From Nitrospirota bacterium (GTDB lineage Bacteria; Nitrospirota; UBA9217): DNA of 64,000 bases. This document shows, in pieces, positions 1 through 5,327 of the stretch. Made by a program: the position numbers and the translations under genes. Numbering within the stretch: the stretch's first letter is position 1; every line of letters starts with the position of its first letter. The stretch lies in NCBI GenBank assembly GCA_963740085.1, contig CAVUCU010000004.1:128001-192000 (forward strand). The letters run 5' to 3'. Under the pieces are notes generated by a model. That model was given only the letters and a program-made list of their open reading frames with translations. It was not told where the DNA came from and did no database searches.

Positions 1-1
1 T

Positions 2-1744
2 GATTACTTTACCGGCGCCTCTTTTAACGGCCCGGGTCCCGACCATGACCGCTTCTTTCTTTCTCCCGCCCAATACGCCCTGGTGCTCTACGCGACCCTG
101 ATCGAGACGGGACGCATGGCGGAGGAAGGGCTTCTCCAGTTCAACAAGGATGGAAGTTCGGTCGAAATGATCGGCGCCGAGCATTCGCCGGGTATGGAGA
201 CCATGACCGGCTCTCTCGGCCAGGGCATCAGCCAGGCGGCAGGCATCGCCATGGCCAGAAAGAGAAAGGAAGAGAAGGGCAGGGTGATCATCTTCATGTC
301 CGACGGCGAGTTCCAGATCGGCCAGACCTGGGAGGCGCTCCAGTCACTGTCCTTTCACATGCTCGACAACGTGGTCATCTTCGTTGATGTGAACGGCTTC
401 CAGTGCGACGGCAAGATGTGCACGGTCATGGACATCGAACCGCTGGACAAGCGGATCGAATCCTTCGGGGCGCGGGTGCTCAGGGTCAATGGGCACGATA
501 TCAAGCGTCTCGCGGATGCCGGATCGCTTACCCCGGATGGACGGCCTGTTGTCGTGCTCTGCGATACCGATGCCGCACGGGGACTGGATATCCTCAAGTC
601 GCGGGCCCCGAAGATGCACTATGTCCGCTTCACGAGCGAAGAGGAAAAGGGCCGTTATGCTGCCGCTTATGCGGAGTTGTGCGGCAGGGAGTATTCGCCC
701 GAACAAAAGAAGGGGGCGGCGCCCGCAAGATCTTCCATCGGTCCGGAGATCGTTACCAGGGTCCACGCAAAGAACCTCGTCCGCTGGGCAGCGGACAAAC
801 CGGAAGTGCTGGTGCTCTCTGCGGACCTCACGAGTTCAACGGAGATCGATCTGTTCAGGTCTACGTATCCCGACCGCTTTCTGTCCATGGGCGTTGCGGA
901 ACAGAACATGCTGAGCTTTGCCGCCGGCCTTGCGCGGGAAGGTTTTATTCCCTTTGTGCATACCTTCGCGGTCTTCATCTATCGCCGCGCCTATGACCAG
1001 ATCGCGATGTCCGTCGCTTATCCGAACCTGCCGGTCCGGATGATCGGTTTTCTTCCGGGCATCACGACGCCGGGCGGGGCTACCCATCAGGCGATCGAGG
1101 ATATCGCGATCATGCGCGCGTTGCCGAACATGACTGTGCTTGAGTGCGGTGACGCGACCGAGGTGGAATCCGTCCTCGAGCTGATGCAGGAAATCAAAGG
1201 CCCGGTGTATGTGCGGATGCTGCGCGGCGAGATCCCGCGGCTCTTCAATAGTCCGATGAAATTGGGAACAGCGCGCGTCCTGACCGAAGGGAAGGATCTC
1301 GTCATTCTGTCAAGCGGCATCATGACCGAAGAGGCAATGCGGGCGGTTCAGGTCCTCCGGAAAAGGGGCCTCTCTGTTCAGCACATGCATATCTCTACAT
1401 TGAAGCCGTTCGATGATCGTTCCGTTCTCGATGCGATCAGCAGGTCGCGCTTCGGCGTCATCACCATGGAGAACCACACGGTCATCGGCGGTCTCGGCAC
1501 GATCATCGCCGAGAAGATGGCGGAATCCGGCATGTCGAAAAAACTGGTCAGGATCGGCCTGAAGGATACGTTCAGCCACGGCGCGAGCAAACAGTATCTT
1601 CTGAAGGAACACAAGATGGACGCGTTATCACTGATCAGCGAGGTTGAGGCGATGATCGGCCGGAAATTCAACATCCTGAAAGACGAATTGGCAGGGACGC
1701 ATGTAGCCGCTGTCCATAGCAAGGCCAAAGCTGAGGCGCTTTAA
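2..1744 (+). CDS. Transketolase-family TPP enzyme, N- and C-terminal halves fused; 5' end lies before the window
   Basis: Frame open from nt 2 (DYFTGASFNGPGPDHDRFFLSPAQYALVLYA...); motifs TGSLGQG, SDGE..GQTWEA, NGFQCDG, LSADL, MGVAEQNM, GGATHQ, ENH..GGLG. Confidence 0.9.
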   Translation, partial: DYFTGASFNGPGPDHDRFFLSPAQYALVLYATLIETGRMAEEGLLQFNKDGSSVEMIGAEHSPGMETMTGSLGQGISQAAGIAMARKRKEEKGRVIIFMSDGEFQIGQTWEALQSLSFHMLDNVVIFVDVNGFQCDGKMCTVMDIEPLDKRIESFGARVLRVNGHDIKRLADAGSLTPDGRPVVVLCDTDAARGLDILKSRAPKMHYVRFTSEEEKGRYAAAYAELCGREYSPEQKKGAAPARSSIGPEIVTRVHAKNLVRWAADKPEVLVLSADLTSSTEIDLFRSTYPDRFLSMGVAEQNMLSFAAGLAREGFIPFVHTFAVFIYRRAYDQIAMSVAYPNLPVRMIGFLPGITTPGGATHQAIEDIAIMRALPNMTVLECGDATEVESVLELMQEIKGPVYVRMLRGEIPRLFNSPMKLGTARVLTEGKDLVILSSGIMTEEAMRAVQVLRKRGLSVQHMHISTLKPFDDRSVLDAISRSRFGVITMENHTVIGGLGTIIAEKMAESGMSKKLVRIGLKDTFSHGASKQYLLKEHKMDALSLISEVEAMIGRKFNILKDELAGTHVAAVHSKAKAEAL

Positions 1745-2898
1745 TGATCATTCAAAAAACCTGCACGCCGAATTCCTTGTTCTCATTGGAACGTTTTTCC
1801 GTCACCTACCGGCTGTTCGGGGGCGAGAAGGACACGCGTGCCAAAGCCGAAGACATCTGCATTGAGCAGACCGTGGAATTTCCCGCCGATGAAGTGCCCG
1901 AGGGGATCATCAGAGACCATGTCTTCGGAAGGATCGAATCATTCGAGCGTTACGACAACGAAAGCTTCAAGGCGGTCATAAGCTATGCCGTGGAAATAGC
2001 GGCAGGCGAACTGACACAGTTCCTGAACGTTGTTTTCGGCAACAGCAGCATCAAGCCGGGCGTCAGGGTGGAGCACCTCGATCTGCCTGAATCGCTGGTT
2101 CGTTGCTTCAAAGGGCCGCGCTTCGGCAGGGTGGGATTACGAAACCTTCTGCAGGCCCCGAAGCGGCCGCTTCTTTCCACTGCGCTCAAACCCATGGGGC
2201 TTTCGTCACAGGAGCTTGCGGACCTGGCATACCAGTTCACCCTCGGGGGCATGGACCTCATCAAGGACGACCACGGACTGAGCAATCAGAGCTGTTCGCC
2301 ATTTGAGGAACGGGTCAGCCTTTGCGCTGCCGCAGTACAGAGGGGAAACAAGGAGACAGGCCAGCGCACGCTCTATGTGGCGAATATTACCGCTCCCCAC
2401 AGCGAGGTCATACAAAGAGCCCGCTTCGCGAAACGAGCCGGCGCGGGCGGCCTGATGGCAGCGCCGGGACTGATCGGCTTTGATCTGATGCGGGAACTTG
2501 CTGATGACGATTCGCTCGCGCTGCCGATCCTGACGCATCCGGCGTTGCAGGGAAGTTTTGTGGCCAGCCGGAACGGCATCTCGCACGGAGTCATCTTCGG
2601 CCAGCTCGCGCGCCTTGCAGGCGCGGACGCGACCATCTTCCCGAACTACGGCGGACGCTTTTCATTCAGCCGGGACGAGTGCAAAGAGATCGCCGGCGCA
2701 ACCTCGGCGCCGATGGGTCATCTCAAGTCGATCTTTCCCGCGCCGGGAGGAGGCATGAACCTCGAGAGGGTGCCGGAGATGATCGAGACCTACGGCCGGG
2801 ACCTAATTTTTCTGATCGGCGGGGGGTTGTTCAAGCACGGACCCGACCTTGTTGAGAACTGCCGGTATTTCAGAAAAATAGTGGAGGCGATGCAATAA
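1744..2898 (+). CDS. RuBisCO-like protein (form IV, KDDH type; resembles the R. rubrum MTRu-1P isomerase clade)
   Basis: EQTVEFP, GPRFG, LKPMGLS, IKDDHGL, HPALQG, FPNYGGRF, PAPGGG, IGGG; TAATG stop/start overlap with the transketolase. Confidence 0.9.
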   Translation: MIIQKTCTPNSLFSLERFSVTYRLFGGEKDTRAKAEDICIEQTVEFPADEVPEGIIRDHVFGRIESFERYDNESFKAVISYAVEIAAGELTQFLNVVFGNSSIKPGVRVEHLDLPESLVRCFKGPRFGRVGLRNLLQAPKRPLLSTALKPMGLSSQELADLAYQFTLGGMDLIKDDHGLSNQSCSPFEERVSLCAAAVQRGNKETGQRTLYVANITAPHSEVIQRARFAKRAGAGGLMAAPGLIGFDLMRELADDDSLALPILTHPALQGSFVASRNGISHGVIFGQLARLAGADATIFPNYGGRFSFSRDECKEIAGATSAPMGHLKSIFPAPGGGMNLERVPEMIETYGRDLIFLIGGGLFKHGPDLVENCRYFRKIVEAMQ

Positions 2899-4354: not shown

Positions 4355-5327
4355 CTATCCCTTCCTTGCTGTCAGCACGACGGTGTCCCCGAGGACCATC
4401 GTCTTAATGCTTCTAAAGCCCGTCTTTATGAGCCACGCCTTCATCTCCTGGACAGTATAACTTCTGCCTGCCGCAGTATTGACGAGCATATTGACGGAGA
4501 AGAGCGCGCCGGGGACCGGGAAGGCCCTGTTGTTTTCCAGGAAGAACTCGTGGATAGCGATCCTGCCTTTCGGGTTCAGCGCATCCCGGGATTTATTCAG
4601 AAGCGCAAGGCTTTCATCCTTGGAAAGAGAATGCAGTATCTGGCTGACGAACACCAGGTCGTAGTTGTCTCCCGATATCATCGGAATGATAATCGCCGCC
4701 GATAAATTCAATGCTCCTGACCTTCGATGCCTTGACGATCTTCCTCGCGATATCGACGGTATCGGGCAGGTCGAAGAGCGTGACCGTCATGCCGTGCCGG
4801 GCAAGTTCCATGCTGTAGGTCCCGGGACCGCCGCCGAGGTCGAGCGCCTTTTTCACGTTGCTCAGGTCAAGGGCCCCGATCACCGTGCTTGCGCGAAAGA
4901 CCGCATTGTTATGCATGGCCATGATGAACGACTCGTGATCACGGCCCCCTGAACGGTTCGGCAGGCCGGTCTTCATGACCTCGTCGAGCCCGGACCAGTT
5001 CTTCCAGAGCGCGTCCGAATGGCGAAGCATGTCGCCCTGGTACCAGGGCGATTCTTTCAGGAGAAATTTTTTCGCCAGGACCGCATTGTGATACGTCGCT
5101 CCTGTTTTCTTGAGCAGTCCGAGGGCCGTAACCGCATCAAGCAGGATCTCCGTTGCCCGCACATCGGTCTTGATCTTCCCCGCAAGCCAAATCGCGGTCT
5201 TCGGTGTCTTGAGGTGTTCAAAGACCGCGTAATTGTTCGCGGTCAGTATCACGCGAGATGCTCGGAACCCGCCCGAGAGCCGCATAAAAACCTGCATCTG
5301 GTTCATAGTGTCTTTGTTCATTGGCAT
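4355..5327 (-). pseudogene. O-methyltransferase (family 2: dimerisation plus SAM domain) split by a one-base insertion at ~4671-4673; pseudogene or sequencing error
   Basis: ORF 4614-5327 has LDLGGGPG, FDLP, GGDY; ORF 4355-4711 continues DNYDLVFVSQILH...LNPKGRIAIHE; removing one G from ATC GGG AGA CAA restores DIGDNYDLVF. Confidence 0.8.

What the first reader, a model, noticed from the sequence alone, without database searches (positions are those of the whole stretch)
2..2898. KDDH-type RuBisCO-like protein coupled to a fused transketolase: candidate uncharacterised SAM by-product salvage branch
Seen: the transketolase stop overlaps the RLP start (TAATG at 1742-1746), and the RLP has KP.GL, KDDHG, HP.L.G, FPN.GGRF and P.GG motifs. 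Established: this motif set characterises the Rhodospirillum rubrum RLP clade. That clade isomerises 5-methylthioribulose-1-P to 1-methylthioxylulose-5-P and works with a cupin methylsulfurylase in the MTA-isoprenoid shunt. Inference: the partner here is a TPP enzyme and no cupin follows the RLP. The product (1-methylthio- or 1-deoxy-xylulose-5-P) may therefore be split or transferred as C2 + glyceraldehyde-3-P, a different exit for MTA or 5'-deoxyadenosine carbon. Genes upstream of the window are not visible.
Basis: partly seen in the sequence, partly recalled or inferred. Interest (0 to 1): 0.8.

Follow-up and report, generated by a model that had tools for sequence, protein, structure and literature searches.

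The report
RuBisCO-like isomerase with dedicated transketolase-like partner
This two-gene operon pairs a RuBisCO-like sugar-phosphate isomerase of the methylthioadenosine-salvage type with an altered transketolase-like enzyme; the pair recurs across many bacterial phyla and probably forms an undescribed way of recycling a by-product of S-adenosylmethionine.

Summary
A 661-aa single-chain transketolase-like (TK-like) gene starts 241 nt before the window and ends at TAA 1742-1744.

The RLP is of the DeepYkr (methylthioribulose-1-P isomerase) type.
- Its best solved relative is 3qfw.
- It shares KDDH and FPNYGGRF with 3qfw but not with the MtnW enolases.

The pairing is not chance.
- Of 80 related loci, 45 have the TK-like gene within 300 nt, 4 have it farther off, and 4 have a cupin instead.
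- In 121 genomes of the same phylum, all 21 with this TK type are among the 23 with a close RLP.

The partner is not an ordinary transketolase. Four substrate-contacting residues are replaced in every linked copy (E. coli TktA H26Y, H100M/L, H461L, D469G). The cofactor residues and three of the four phosphate residues are kept.

The genome has SpeE, MtnP and MtnA. I found no class II aldolase and no clear cupin.

The most likely reading is that the TK-like enzyme replaces the cupin and splits 1-methylthioxylulose-5-P. That chemistry is inferred, not shown. I found no paper on the pairing. This scan has reported the same module before on other DNA.

The parts
1..1744 (+). 3' 1744 nt of a 661-aa fused (single-chain) transketolase-like TPP enzyme. 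The true start ATG lies 241 nt before the window (G000:C4:127759).
   Evidence: ORF and sequence. Pfam Transketolase_N, Transket_pyr and Transketolase_C in one frame. NCBIfam transketolase models score below their cut-offs. Altered substrate residues.
1731..1734 (+). GAGG, a likely ribosome-binding site for the RLP gene, inside the end of the TK-like gene.
   Evidence: Read from the sequence. Not tested.
1742..1746 (+). TAATG: stop of the TK-like gene overlapping the start of the RLP gene (translational coupling).
1744..2898 (+). 384-aa RuBisCO-like protein of the DeepYkr type, the presumed 5-methylthioribulose-1-P 1,3-isomerase.
   Evidence: Pfam PF00016. Best solved relative 3qfw with shared KDDH and FPNYGGRF. 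Sixty conserved columns identical to those of cupin-linked or cupin-fused RLPs. It is the only RuBisCO-family gene in the genome.

Best explanation
The window opens inside a two-gene operon, separate from the genes before it. It encodes (1) a dedicated, remodelled thiamine-diphosphate (TPP) enzyme of transketolase ancestry and (2) a DeepYkr-type RuBisCO-like protein (RLP).

Proposed route in this bacterium: spermidine synthase and other SAM users make 5'-methylthioadenosine. MtnP and MtnA, encoded elsewhere, turn it into 5-methylthioribulose-1-P. The RLP isomerises that to 1-methylthioxylulose-5-P, as shown for its R. rubrum and R. palustris relatives. The TK-like enzyme then does the job that the cupin methylsulfurylase does in those species. 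It attacks the C2 carbonyl with TPP and cuts C2-C3, releasing glyceraldehyde-3-P.

The C2 fragment left on TPP carries a methylthio group next to the carbanion. It should therefore either lose methanethiol to give acetyl-TPP (then acetate or acetyl phosphate, in the manner of phosphoketolase) or be protonated and leave as 2-(methylthio)acetaldehyde.

What is shown: the gene anatomy, the RLP type, the conserved pairing and co-occurrence, the altered TK-like residues, and the presence of MtnP, MtnA and SpeE.

What is inferred: the RLP substrate (by homology), the order RLP then TK-like enzyme, and all of the TK-like chemistry.
For: Anatomy.
- The TAATG overlap and the single 661-aa TK-like ORF are seen.
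- A terminator-like hairpin follows the upstream SirC-like gene, then 300 nt of spacer.

RLP type.
- 3qfw is the best solved relative (E 6.7e-74), and the KDDH and FPNYGGRF motifs are shared with it.
- Sixty columns are conserved with the same residue in 51 TK-linked and 30 cupin-linked or cupin-fused RLPs. Only one column is group-specific.
- Of the 37 long representatives I scanned (out of 150 listed), 27 are RLP-cupin fusions.
- Four cupin-linked RLPs nest inside the TK-linked clade, so the two partners look interchangeable.

Pairing across 80 loci.
- TK-like gene within 300 nt: 45.
- TK-like gene 335-3789 nt away: 4.
- Cupin instead: 4.
- Neither, with both flanks at least 2.2 kb: 13.
- Neither, with only the upstream flank at least 2.2 kb: 3.
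- Flanks too short to judge: 11.

Co-occurrence.
- In 121 genomes of the phylum, all 21 with this TK type (at least 62% identity) are among the 23 with an RLP of at least 52% identity.
- None of the 10 with a distant RLP has it, and none of the 88 without an RLP has it.
- Of 5 genomes where the RLP stands alone, 4 hold the TK orthologue elsewhere.

TK-like enzyme remodelling (E. coli TktA numbering).
- H26Y in 46 of 46 loci, H100M/L in 46 of 46, H461L in 48 of 48, D469G in 48 of 48, H66 to Q in 20 of 46.
- D155, N185, H261, S385, E411 and H473 are kept, and so are R358 (as R or K) and R520.
- The genome's other transketolases keep the canonical residues at the positions they cover, except that the 612-aa one has Gln at H473.

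Genome context.
- MtnA (438 bits, above the cut-off of 279), MTAP (329 bits, above 275) and spermidine synthase are present.
- No class II aldolase was found in a genome 98.5% complete.
- The best cupin match is 27% identical, E 1e-6.

Salvage genes beside the pair elsewhere.
- MtnA in 9 of 80 loci.
- MtnK-like kinase in 7 of 80.
- PNP_UDP_1 phosphorylase in L023, L044 and L054.
Against: - No enzyme of the TK-linked clade has been assayed. The RLP substrate is carried over from relatives that match at E 6.7e-74 (3qfw), not from close orthologues.
- The characterised partner, the cupin, is absent, so the family's known pathway is not complete here.
- In this genome nothing else links the operon to SAM by-products. 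MtnA and MtnP lie on another contig, no riboswitch was found, and the neighbours are unrelated.
- Thirteen loci with both flanks of at least 2.2 kb have neither a TK-like gene nor a cupin. Two genomes of the phylum sample (G074 and G070) have a close RLP but no TK of this type.
- D469G and H461L change the far end of the substrate channel as well, which a mere swap of the C1 substituent does not explain.
- Recapture of methanethiol is unclear. Only a below-cut-off Cys/Met PLP enzyme, matched in three separate stretches, was found with the O-acetylhomoserine sulfhydrylase model.
- The tree is FastTree with midpoint root. The TK-linked clade has SH-like support 94, which is not starred.
Confidence: 0.55

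Rival explanations
1. The pair mainly serves 5'-deoxyadenosine, the by-product of radical SAM enzymes. MtnP and MtnA would give 5-deoxyribulose-1-P. The RLP would turn it into 1-deoxyxylulose-5-P, and the TK-like enzyme would run a reverse-DXS-like cleavage to glyceraldehyde-3-P plus a hydroxyethyl-TPP unit, released as acetaldehyde. The pair may handle both by-products.
For: - The hydrophobic replacement of H100 (M or L) would suit a methyl group as well as a methylthiomethyl group.
- The TK-like enzyme shows DXS-like features: the same one-residue deletion before the GG/DG motif, and a His in the motif AEHSPG that aligns with the DXS motif GHSS.
- In one locus (L051) the pair follows a microcompartment gene set with an aldehyde dehydrogenase, which would suit an aldehyde product.
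- The known DHAP shunt handles both by-products (abstract of PMC10441430 in the listing).
Against: - If the RLP made 1-deoxyxylulose-5-P, the cell could feed it straight to Dxr, which is present, and no second enzyme would be needed.
- The interchange with the cupin, an enzyme that removes the methylthio group, points to the sulfur compound.
- Cys/Met PLP enzymes lie near some pairs (L080, L084, L085).
- Activity of any DeepYkr RLP on 5-deoxyribulose-1-P is not documented in what I could read.
Confidence: 0.15
2. The TK-like enzyme is a true transferase. It moves the C2 unit of the RLP product, or of another ketose phosphate, onto an acceptor aldehyde and builds a new sugar instead of releasing a small molecule.
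For: - The full transketolase fold is present.
- H261, H473 and E411 are kept.
- Three of the four phosphate residues are kept: R358 (as R or K), S385 and R520.
- Transketolase is reported to make 7-deoxysedoheptulose from 5-deoxyribose in Synechococcus (abstracts of PMC8102628 and its preprint in the listing).
Against: - The residues that hold the acceptor's C2 hydroxyl and its phosphate (D469 and H461) are lost in all 48 loci.
- A carbanion next to a methylthio group should eliminate thiolate faster than it can be transferred. This is chemical reasoning, not a test.
Confidence: 0.1
3. The pair has nothing to do with SAM by-products. It would be a sugar or pentose phosphate route, such as a Calvin-cycle remnant or catabolism of an imported sugar, in which the RLP isomerises some other ketose phosphate.
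For: - Some pairs sit beside sugar ABC importers, DeoR or SorC regulators, ribulose-phosphate epimerase and DeoC-type aldolase (L032, L036, L041, L059, L061).
- A few related RLPs stand beside PTS or FGGY kinase genes (L083, L046).
- Other RLP clades do act in sugar-acid catabolism (Carter et al. 2018, as cited in passages of PMC6389311 and PMC6302742).
Against: - The importer-containing clusters also carry MtnK-like and MtnA genes.
- The RLP falls far below the OiaX and RuBisCO cut-offs.
- The RLP's conserved columns equal those of the cupin-linked RLPs.
- The genome has separate canonical transketolases.
Confidence: 0.1

Closest known systems
MTA-isoprenoid shunt of Rhodospirillum rubrum and Rhodopseudomonas palustris (MtnP, MtnA, DeepYkr RLP, cupin 1-methylthioxylulose-5-P methylsulfurylase). 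Passages of PMC5893883 read.
   Same: - Same RLP type: best solved relative 3qfw, KDDH and FPNYGGRF motifs, and 60 conserved columns identical to cupin-linked RLPs.
- MtnP and MtnA are present in the genome.
   Different: - There is no cupin beside the RLP and none clearly in the genome.
- A TPP enzyme sits in its place, so the expected product is glyceraldehyde-3-P plus a C2 piece rather than 1-deoxyxylulose-5-P.
- The link to isoprenoid synthesis would be lost.
DHAP shunt (MtnP or MtnK, MtnA, class II aldolase Ald2) for MTA and 5'-deoxyadenosine. Passages of PMC5893883 and the abstract of PMC10441430.
   Same: - Same entry steps.
- Same overall logic: split the C5 by-product into a triose phosphate and a C2 fragment.
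   Different: - No class II aldolase was found in this genome.
- The cut would come after a 1,3-isomerisation and by TPP chemistry.
- It would give glyceraldehyde-3-P rather than DHAP.
Split-chain and mammalian-type transketolases (Carboxydothermus hydrogenoformans 6yaj/6yak; human 3mos and 4kxu).
   Same: - They are the closest solved relatives of the TK-like protein (E 4e-66 and 8e-63).
- Same three domains, the Mg/TPP residues D155 and N185, and the cofactor-activating E411.
   Different: - H26Y, H66Q (in this window; Q in 20 and H in 26 of 46 loci), H100M, H461L, D469G, and SDG in place of GDG.
- It scores below the NCBIfam transketolase cut-offs (361 bits against 488).
- It is always accompanied by an RLP in the genomes sampled.
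DXP synthase and phosphoketolase. These are mechanistic analogues, recalled knowledge, and not claimed as family.
   Same: - DXS binds a 1-deoxy ketose phosphate product and lacks the C1-hydroxyl histidines. The TK-like protein shares its one-residue deletion and a shifted His.
- Phosphoketolase eliminates the group beta to the TPP carbanion to give acetyl-TPP, which is the chemistry proposed here for methanethiol release.
   Different: - The TK-like protein scores below the DXS cut-off (190.6 bits against 465.95).
- The genome has its own Dxs, 48% identical to that of E. coli.
- No sequence relation to phosphoketolase was tested.

Membership tests
DeepYkr-clade RuBisCO-like protein (5-methylthioribulose-1-P 1,3-isomerase) | RuBisCO large-chain catalytic domain | tested here: met
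   PF00016, E 8.2e-33, residues 132-382.
DeepYkr-clade RuBisCO-like protein (5-methylthioribulose-1-P 1,3-isomerase) | Closer to the solved DeepYkr-type RLP than to MtnW/YkrW enolases, with the motifs KDDH and FPNYGGRF | tested here: met
   3qfw scores E 6.7e-74, against 4nas at 4e-52 and 2oek at 1.3e-47. The alignments show KDDH and FPNYGGRF in the query and 3qfw, and KDDE and FPS in the other two. That 3qfw is the R. palustris RLP is recalled and comes from no call.
DeepYkr-clade RuBisCO-like protein (5-methylthioribulose-1-P 1,3-isomerase) | Groups with RLPs that are fused or adjacent to the cupin methylsulfurylase | tested here: met
   Four cupin-adjacent RLPs nest in the same 85-row clade, and cupin fusions fill the rest of the tree. 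Sixty conserved columns are identical in both sets. The tree is FastTree and its root is arbitrary.
DeepYkr-clade RuBisCO-like protein (5-methylthioribulose-1-P 1,3-isomerase) | Cupin methylsulfurylase as the next enzyme | tested here: not met
   No cupin lies beside the gene. The best genome match to eight cupin domains is 27% identical, E 1e-6.
DeepYkr-clade RuBisCO-like protein (5-methylthioribulose-1-P 1,3-isomerase) | MtnP and MtnA in the genome to supply the substrate | tested here: met
   MtnA scores 438 bits against a cut-off of 279. MTAP scores 329 bits against 274.85.
DeepYkr-clade RuBisCO-like protein (5-methylthioribulose-1-P 1,3-isomerase) | Isomerase activity on 5-methylthioribulose-1-P | not testable with these tools
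   Needs an enzyme assay.
MtnW/YkrW 2,3-diketo-5-methylthiopentyl-1-P enolase | Score above the NCBIfam equivalog cut-off | tested here: not met
   NF007095 scores 230.1 against 409, and TIGR03332 scores 180.4 against 513.6.
Carboxylating RuBisCO (forms I-III) | Score above the NCBIfam cut-offs | tested here: not met
   TIGR03326 scores 151.9 against 497.45, and NF003252 scores 151.7 against 438.
Transketolase (EC 2.2.1.1) | Three transketolase domains, the Mg/TPP residues and the cofactor-activating Glu | tested here: met
   PF00456, PF02779 and PF02780 are all found. D155, N185 and E411 are kept.
Transketolase (EC 2.2.1.1) | Histidines that hold the donor's C1 hydroxyl and the sugar (E. coli H26, H66, H100), and D469 and H461 for the acceptor | tested here: not met
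   The window's enzyme has Y, Q, M, G and L at these positions. The same changes occur in 46 of 46 or 48 of 48 linked homologues, except that H66 is Q in 20 and H in 26 of 46. The roles of the residues are recalled from the transketolase literature.
Transketolase (EC 2.2.1.1) | Score above the NCBIfam equivalog cut-off | tested here: not met
   The best model, NF004559, scores 361.3 against 488 for the window's truncated frame. The full-length protein was not rescanned against NCBIfam.
1-deoxy-D-xylulose-5-phosphate synthase | Score above the NCBIfam cut-off | tested here: not met
   TIGR00204 scores 190.6 against 465.95. A true Dxs lies at G000:C4:84741-86669.

The most novel reading that the evidence does not exclude
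The transketolase-like partner is a new kind of TPP enzyme, a 1-methylthioxylulose-5-phosphate lyase. It would cut C2-C3 to give glyceraldehyde-3-P. Because the TPP-bound carbanion sits next to a methylthio group, it would expel methanethiol and end as acetyl-TPP (then acetate or acetyl phosphate). Together with the RLP this would be another oxygen-independent route for methylthioadenosine, beside the canonical pathway, the isoprenoid shunt and the DHAP shunts. It would return both the sulfur and all five carbons to central metabolism, and it would be spread over many anaerobic phyla.
Probability: 0.3. Interest if true: 0.8.

Novelty: new variant of a known kind. Interest (0 to 1): 0.62.

Why it matters
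- Methylthioadenosine and 5'-deoxyadenosine are made by nearly all cells and must be removed. How strict anaerobes without the oxygen-dependent pathway, the aldolase shunt or the cupin do this is an open point.
- This pair offers a directly testable answer. It also points to a TPP reaction that has not been described.
- It would be a possible source of methanethiol in anoxic sediments and soils.
- There is a practical consequence for annotation. Sources label these genes 'ribulose-bisphosphate carboxylase large chain' and 'transketolase' (the RLP-TK fusion P0159). In metagenome-based reconstructions that could be misread as Calvin-cycle capacity in Nitrospirota, Chloroflexota, Spirochaetota and others.

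Tried and rejected
- **Riboswitch or other RNA upstream of the operon.** Nothing was found but one chance-level hit (E 0.66).
- **Promoter scan.** It found nothing useful upstream.
- **Repeats.** This window's transketolase linker and spacer hold no such repeat.
- **Cupin elsewhere in the genome.** There are only weak matches, at best 27% identity and E 1e-6.
- **Class II aldolase (MtnB or Ald2).** No match.
- **O-acetylhomoserine sulfhydrylase.** Only below-cut-off matches, in separate stretches, so methanethiol recapture stays open.
- **Literature.** Searches found no paper on an RLP-transketolase pair. I read passages of PMC5893883, PMC6389311, PMC7895386, PMC6302742 and PMC10663253. Of these, PMC5893883, PMC6302742 and PMC10663253 do not contain the word 'transketolase'. 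PMC6389311 uses it only for the Calvin cycle. I did not search PMC7895386 for the word; its RLP passages concern how RLPs were excluded.
- **Papers not held.** Tabita 2007 (PMC2168653), Erb 2012 (PMC3475740) and Warlick 2012 (PMC3490199) are not held. Warlick's 2013 dissertation on the DeepYkr family, cited in PMC5893883, could not be seen. Any of these may discuss this gene context.
- **Alignment scripts.** Two scripts timed out because of a column-parsing error of mine. I found the error and redid the work.
- **Not attempted.** I ran no structure or complex prediction, because the report does not claim that the two proteins bind.


Full report
**What is in the window**

The + strand frame open from base 2 ends at TAA 1742-1744. 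The next ORF begins at ATG 1744-1746, so the TAATG overlap is real. A GAGG lies 9 nt before that ATG.

The window is G000:C4:128001-192000. I fetched 16 kb upstream. The first gene starts at an ATG 241 nt before the window, behind an AGGGGA. It encodes 661 aa with Transketolase_N, Transket_pyr and Transketolase_C in one chain.

Upstream lie BamD and a SirC-type siroheme gene, then a terminator-like hairpin and a 300-nt spacer. Downstream comes a 133-nt gap and then a PEMT/ICMT-like membrane methyltransferase. The unit is therefore a two-gene operon with no salvage gene beside it. No Rfam family matches the spacer.

**The RuBisCO-like protein (RLP)**

- It is the only RuBisCO-family gene in the genome.
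- It scores below the NCBIfam cut-offs for MtnW, OiaX and true RuBisCO.
- Its best solved relative is 3qfw (E 6.7e-74). The MtnW-type chains 4nas and 2oek follow at 4e-52 and 1e-47.
- In the printed alignments the query and 3qfw share KDDH and FPNYGGRF, where the MtnW types have KDDE and FPS.
- That 3qfw is the R. palustris DeepYkr RLP is my recollection and comes from no call.

Passages of PMC5893883 state three things. DeepYkr RLPs of R. rubrum and R. palustris isomerise 5-methylthioribulose-1-P to 1-methylthioxylulose-5-P. The neighbouring cupin then releases the methylthio group and gives DXP. [quoted passage not shown]

A search of 1.84 billion representatives gave 412 relatives at E up to 1e-30. 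Of the 150 listed, I scanned the 37 that were clearly longer than a bare RLP. Twenty-seven are RLP-cupin fusions, one is an RLP-Transketolase_N fusion (P0159, a single metagenome record) and one is an inositol-monophosphatase-RLP fusion.

**Is the pairing conserved?**

A scan of one genome per species returned the best 80 of 583 confirmed loci. They are 51-85% identical to the query, so close relatives are over-represented. tblastn with the window's own proteins gave:

| Situation at the locus | Loci (of 80) |
|---|---|
| TK-like gene within 300 nt of the RLP (44 upstream, 1 downstream) | 45 |
| TK-like gene 335-3789 nt away | 4 |
| Cupin beside the RLP instead | 4 |
| Neither, both flanks at least 2.2 kb | 13 |
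| Neither, only the upstream flank at least 2.2 kb | 3 |
| Flanks too short to judge | 11 |

- The carriers include Nitrospirota, Bacillota, Chloroflexota, Spirochaetota, Calditrichota, Myxococcota, NC10, Acidobacteriota, Elusimicrobiota and Gammaproteobacteria (record titles).
- The TK-like gene is a single chain in 12 of the 49 linked loci and is in two or more reading frames in the rest.
- Where the RLP stands alone, its neighbours are unrelated and differ from locus to locus.
- In three close Nitrospirota relatives of that kind, an 81-84% identical TK orthologue lies elsewhere in the genome. It appears to be on the same contig in two of them; the contig numbers match but were not checked further. 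In L014 the RLP's upstream neighbours include a HEPN gene and a DNA methylase gene, which look inserted.
- A Thiocystis genome has a 59% orthologue on another contig. A Thiodictyon genome has none.

**Co-occurrence without regard to linkage**

I searched 121 genomes of the window's phylum with each protein.

- An RLP of at least 52% identity occurs in 23 genomes.
- The TK type (at least 62% identity) occurs in 21, and all 21 are among those 23. The exceptions are G074 and G070.
- None of the 10 genomes with only a distant RLP (36-44%) has it.
- None of the 88 genomes without an RLP has it. The matches there are 37-38% identical and are the ordinary split transketolase.
- Among the 20 relatives that have both genes, 14 have them within 3.8 kb, one has them 121 kb apart, and five have them on different contigs.
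- These genomes are kin, so the counts overstate independence.

**Tree and conserved residues**

I built a FastTree of 217 RLPs: the window's RLP, 80 loci and 136 representatives. Fourteen representatives with under 281 aligned residues were dropped. The root is at the midpoint and support is SH-like only.

- Forty-nine of the 50 TK-linked loci (and the window's own RLP) fall in one 85-row clade (support 94, not starred).
- The four cupin-adjacent RLPs nest inside that clade.
- Twenty cupin fusions fill the other half of the tree.
- A 13-row clade (support 100) holds six cupin fusions and the RLP-TK fusion. Its members include Ostreococcus and Prasinoderma (names).

I then compared 51 TK-linked with 30 cupin-linked or cupin-fused RLPs. 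Sixty columns are conserved with the same residue in both sets, including N95, K149, K174-D175-D176, H265, G303-G304-R305-F306 and G336-G337. Only one column (330) is group-specific.

I read this as the same isomerase feeding one of two alternative next enzymes.

**The TK-like enzyme**

Its nearest solved relatives are the split transketolase of C. hydrogenoformans and human transketolase. It falls below the NCBIfam cut-offs for both transketolase and DXS.

The genome has other members of the superfamily:
- a Dxs;
- a split transketolase;
- a 612-aa transketolase;
- an apparently broken long-type transketolase.

I aligned the enzyme with E. coli TktA, taken from K-12. The residue roles are recalled from the transketolase literature. 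Results:

| E. coli TktA position | In the window's enzyme and its RLP-linked homologues |
|---|---|
| H26 | Y (46 of 46 loci) |
| H66 | Q (20 of 46) or H (26 of 46); Q in the window |
| H100 | M (43) or L (3) of 46 |
| H461 | L (48 of 48) |
| D469 | G (48 of 48) |
| D155, N185, H261, S385, E411, H473, R358 (as R or K), R520 | kept |

- The genome's ordinary transketolases keep the canonical residues, except that the 612-aa one has Gln at the H473 position.
- The linked enzymes also share with DXS a one-residue deletion before the GG/DG motif, and a His five residues after the lost H100 (AEHSPG, against GHSS in DXS).
- The histidines that hold the donor's C1 hydroxyl are replaced by Met and, in part of the loci, Gln. 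Three of the four residues that hold the phosphate remain (H461 is lost).
- That fits a donor ketose phosphate with a methylthiomethyl or methyl group at C1. It is a fit, not a proof, and the loss of D469 and H461 is not explained by it.

**Genome-level context**

- MtnA and MTA phosphorylase are present above their cut-offs on contig C1.
- A spermidine synthase gives a source of MTA.
- Dxs and Dxr are present.
- No class II aldolase was found in a genome 98.5% complete, so neither MtnB nor the DHAP-shunt aldolase is evident.
- No convincing cupin methylsulfurylase was found.
- The RLP and TK-like pair is thus the only visible outlet for 5-methylthioribulose-1-P.

In other genomes the pair sits beside:
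- MtnA in 9 of 80 loci;
- an MtnK-like kinase in 7 of 80;
- PNP_UDP_1 phosphorylases in L023, L044 and L054;
- sugar ABC importers and DeoR or SorC regulators;
- now and then Cys/Met PLP enzymes (4 loci), cysteine-synthase-like enzymes (3 loci) or GAPDH (3 loci);
- once, a microcompartment gene set with an aldehyde dehydrogenase (L051).

**Most likely mechanism**

Shown: the anatomy, the RLP type, the pairing, the co-occurrence and the altered residues.

Inferred:
1. The RLP makes 1-methylthioxylulose-5-P.
2. The TK-like enzyme adds TPP to C2 and cleaves C2-C3, giving glyceraldehyde-3-P.
3. The remaining 2-methylthio-1-hydroxyethyl-TPP carbanion either expels methanethiol to give acetyl-TPP (my preferred variant, by analogy with phosphoketolase) or is released as 2-(methylthio)acetaldehyde.

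I put about 0.55 on the overall model and about 0.3 on the methanethiol-eliminating variant. The rivals are a main role in 5'-deoxyadenosine salvage, a true ketol transfer, and an unrelated sugar route.

**Novelty**

Nine literature searches and passages of five papers gave no description of this pair. Erb 2012, Warlick 2012 and Tabita 2007 are not held, and Warlick's dissertation could not be seen, so priority cannot be excluded.

This scan has reported the same module before on other DNA. I re-tested its main claims here on this window and its relatives.

Particular to this window are:
- the fused single-chain transketolase form;
- the bare two-gene operon;
- a genome in which no other outlet for the MtnA product is visible.

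I class it as a new variant of a known kind of pathway.

Noticed in passing
window 4355-5327, minus strand: An O-methyltransferase (Dimerisation plus Methyltransf_2) is spread over two overlapping ORFs in different frames: 4614-5327 (237 aa) and 4355-4711 (118 aa). This suggests a frameshift, either a pseudogene or an assembly error.
   Followed up: partly
L014 (3847-7838), L018 (4249-7775); G001-G003: In close Nitrospirota relatives the transketolase-like and RLP genes are pulled apart by inserted genes. L014 has a HEPN gene and a DNA methylase gene between them. L018 has a hybrid-cluster (prismane) gene and a CMD-family gene. The spacing reaches 8-28 kb or more, yet both genes stay in the genome.
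   Followed up: partly
L051:1689-5738: In an Anaerolineaceae genome the transketolase-like/RLP pair lies directly downstream of, and on the same strand as, a bacterial microcompartment gene set (three EutN/CcmL, one BMC-H, one aldehyde dehydrogenase). This hints at an aldehyde product. Only this locus has BMC-H; L061 has one EutN 6.5 kb away.
   Followed up: partly
P0183; P0159; P0124, P0147 and P0161 with their clusters: There are unusual fusions of DeepYkr-like RLPs. One is an inositol-monophosphatase-RLP fusion of 726 aa. One is an RLP-Transketolase_N fusion of 730 aa from a single metagenome contig. There are also long algal forms (Ostreococcus 679 aa, Prasinoderma about 790 aa), some with cupin domains.
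   Followed up: partly
G000:C1:1324937-1326108: A long-type transketolase appears as two overlapping ORFs (204 and 240 aa, matching E. coli TktA residues 159-358 and 348-531) with no N-terminal part. It is a likely broken or partial gene.
   Followed up: no
G000:C5:349756-350917: A Cys/Met-metabolism PLP enzyme matches the O-acetylhomoserine sulfhydrylase model in three separate stretches, below the cut-off. It may be frameshifted.
   Followed up: no
L014:9346-11004, L017:2430-3422, L084:1619-4472: GAPDH genes lie just downstream of the RLP in two Nitrospirota loci, and in L014 an MGS-like gene follows. In one spirochaete locus a Cys/Met PLP enzyme sits between the RLP and GAPDH. This would suit glyceraldehyde-3-P and methanethiol as products, but it is 3 of 80 loci.
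   Followed up: no
L020 (4637-6634), L037 (5984-7998), L091 (5846-7953): In these metagenome-assembled genomes the transketolase-like gene reads in two or three overlapping frames. This looks like indel errors of the assemblies rather than real splits.
   Followed up: no
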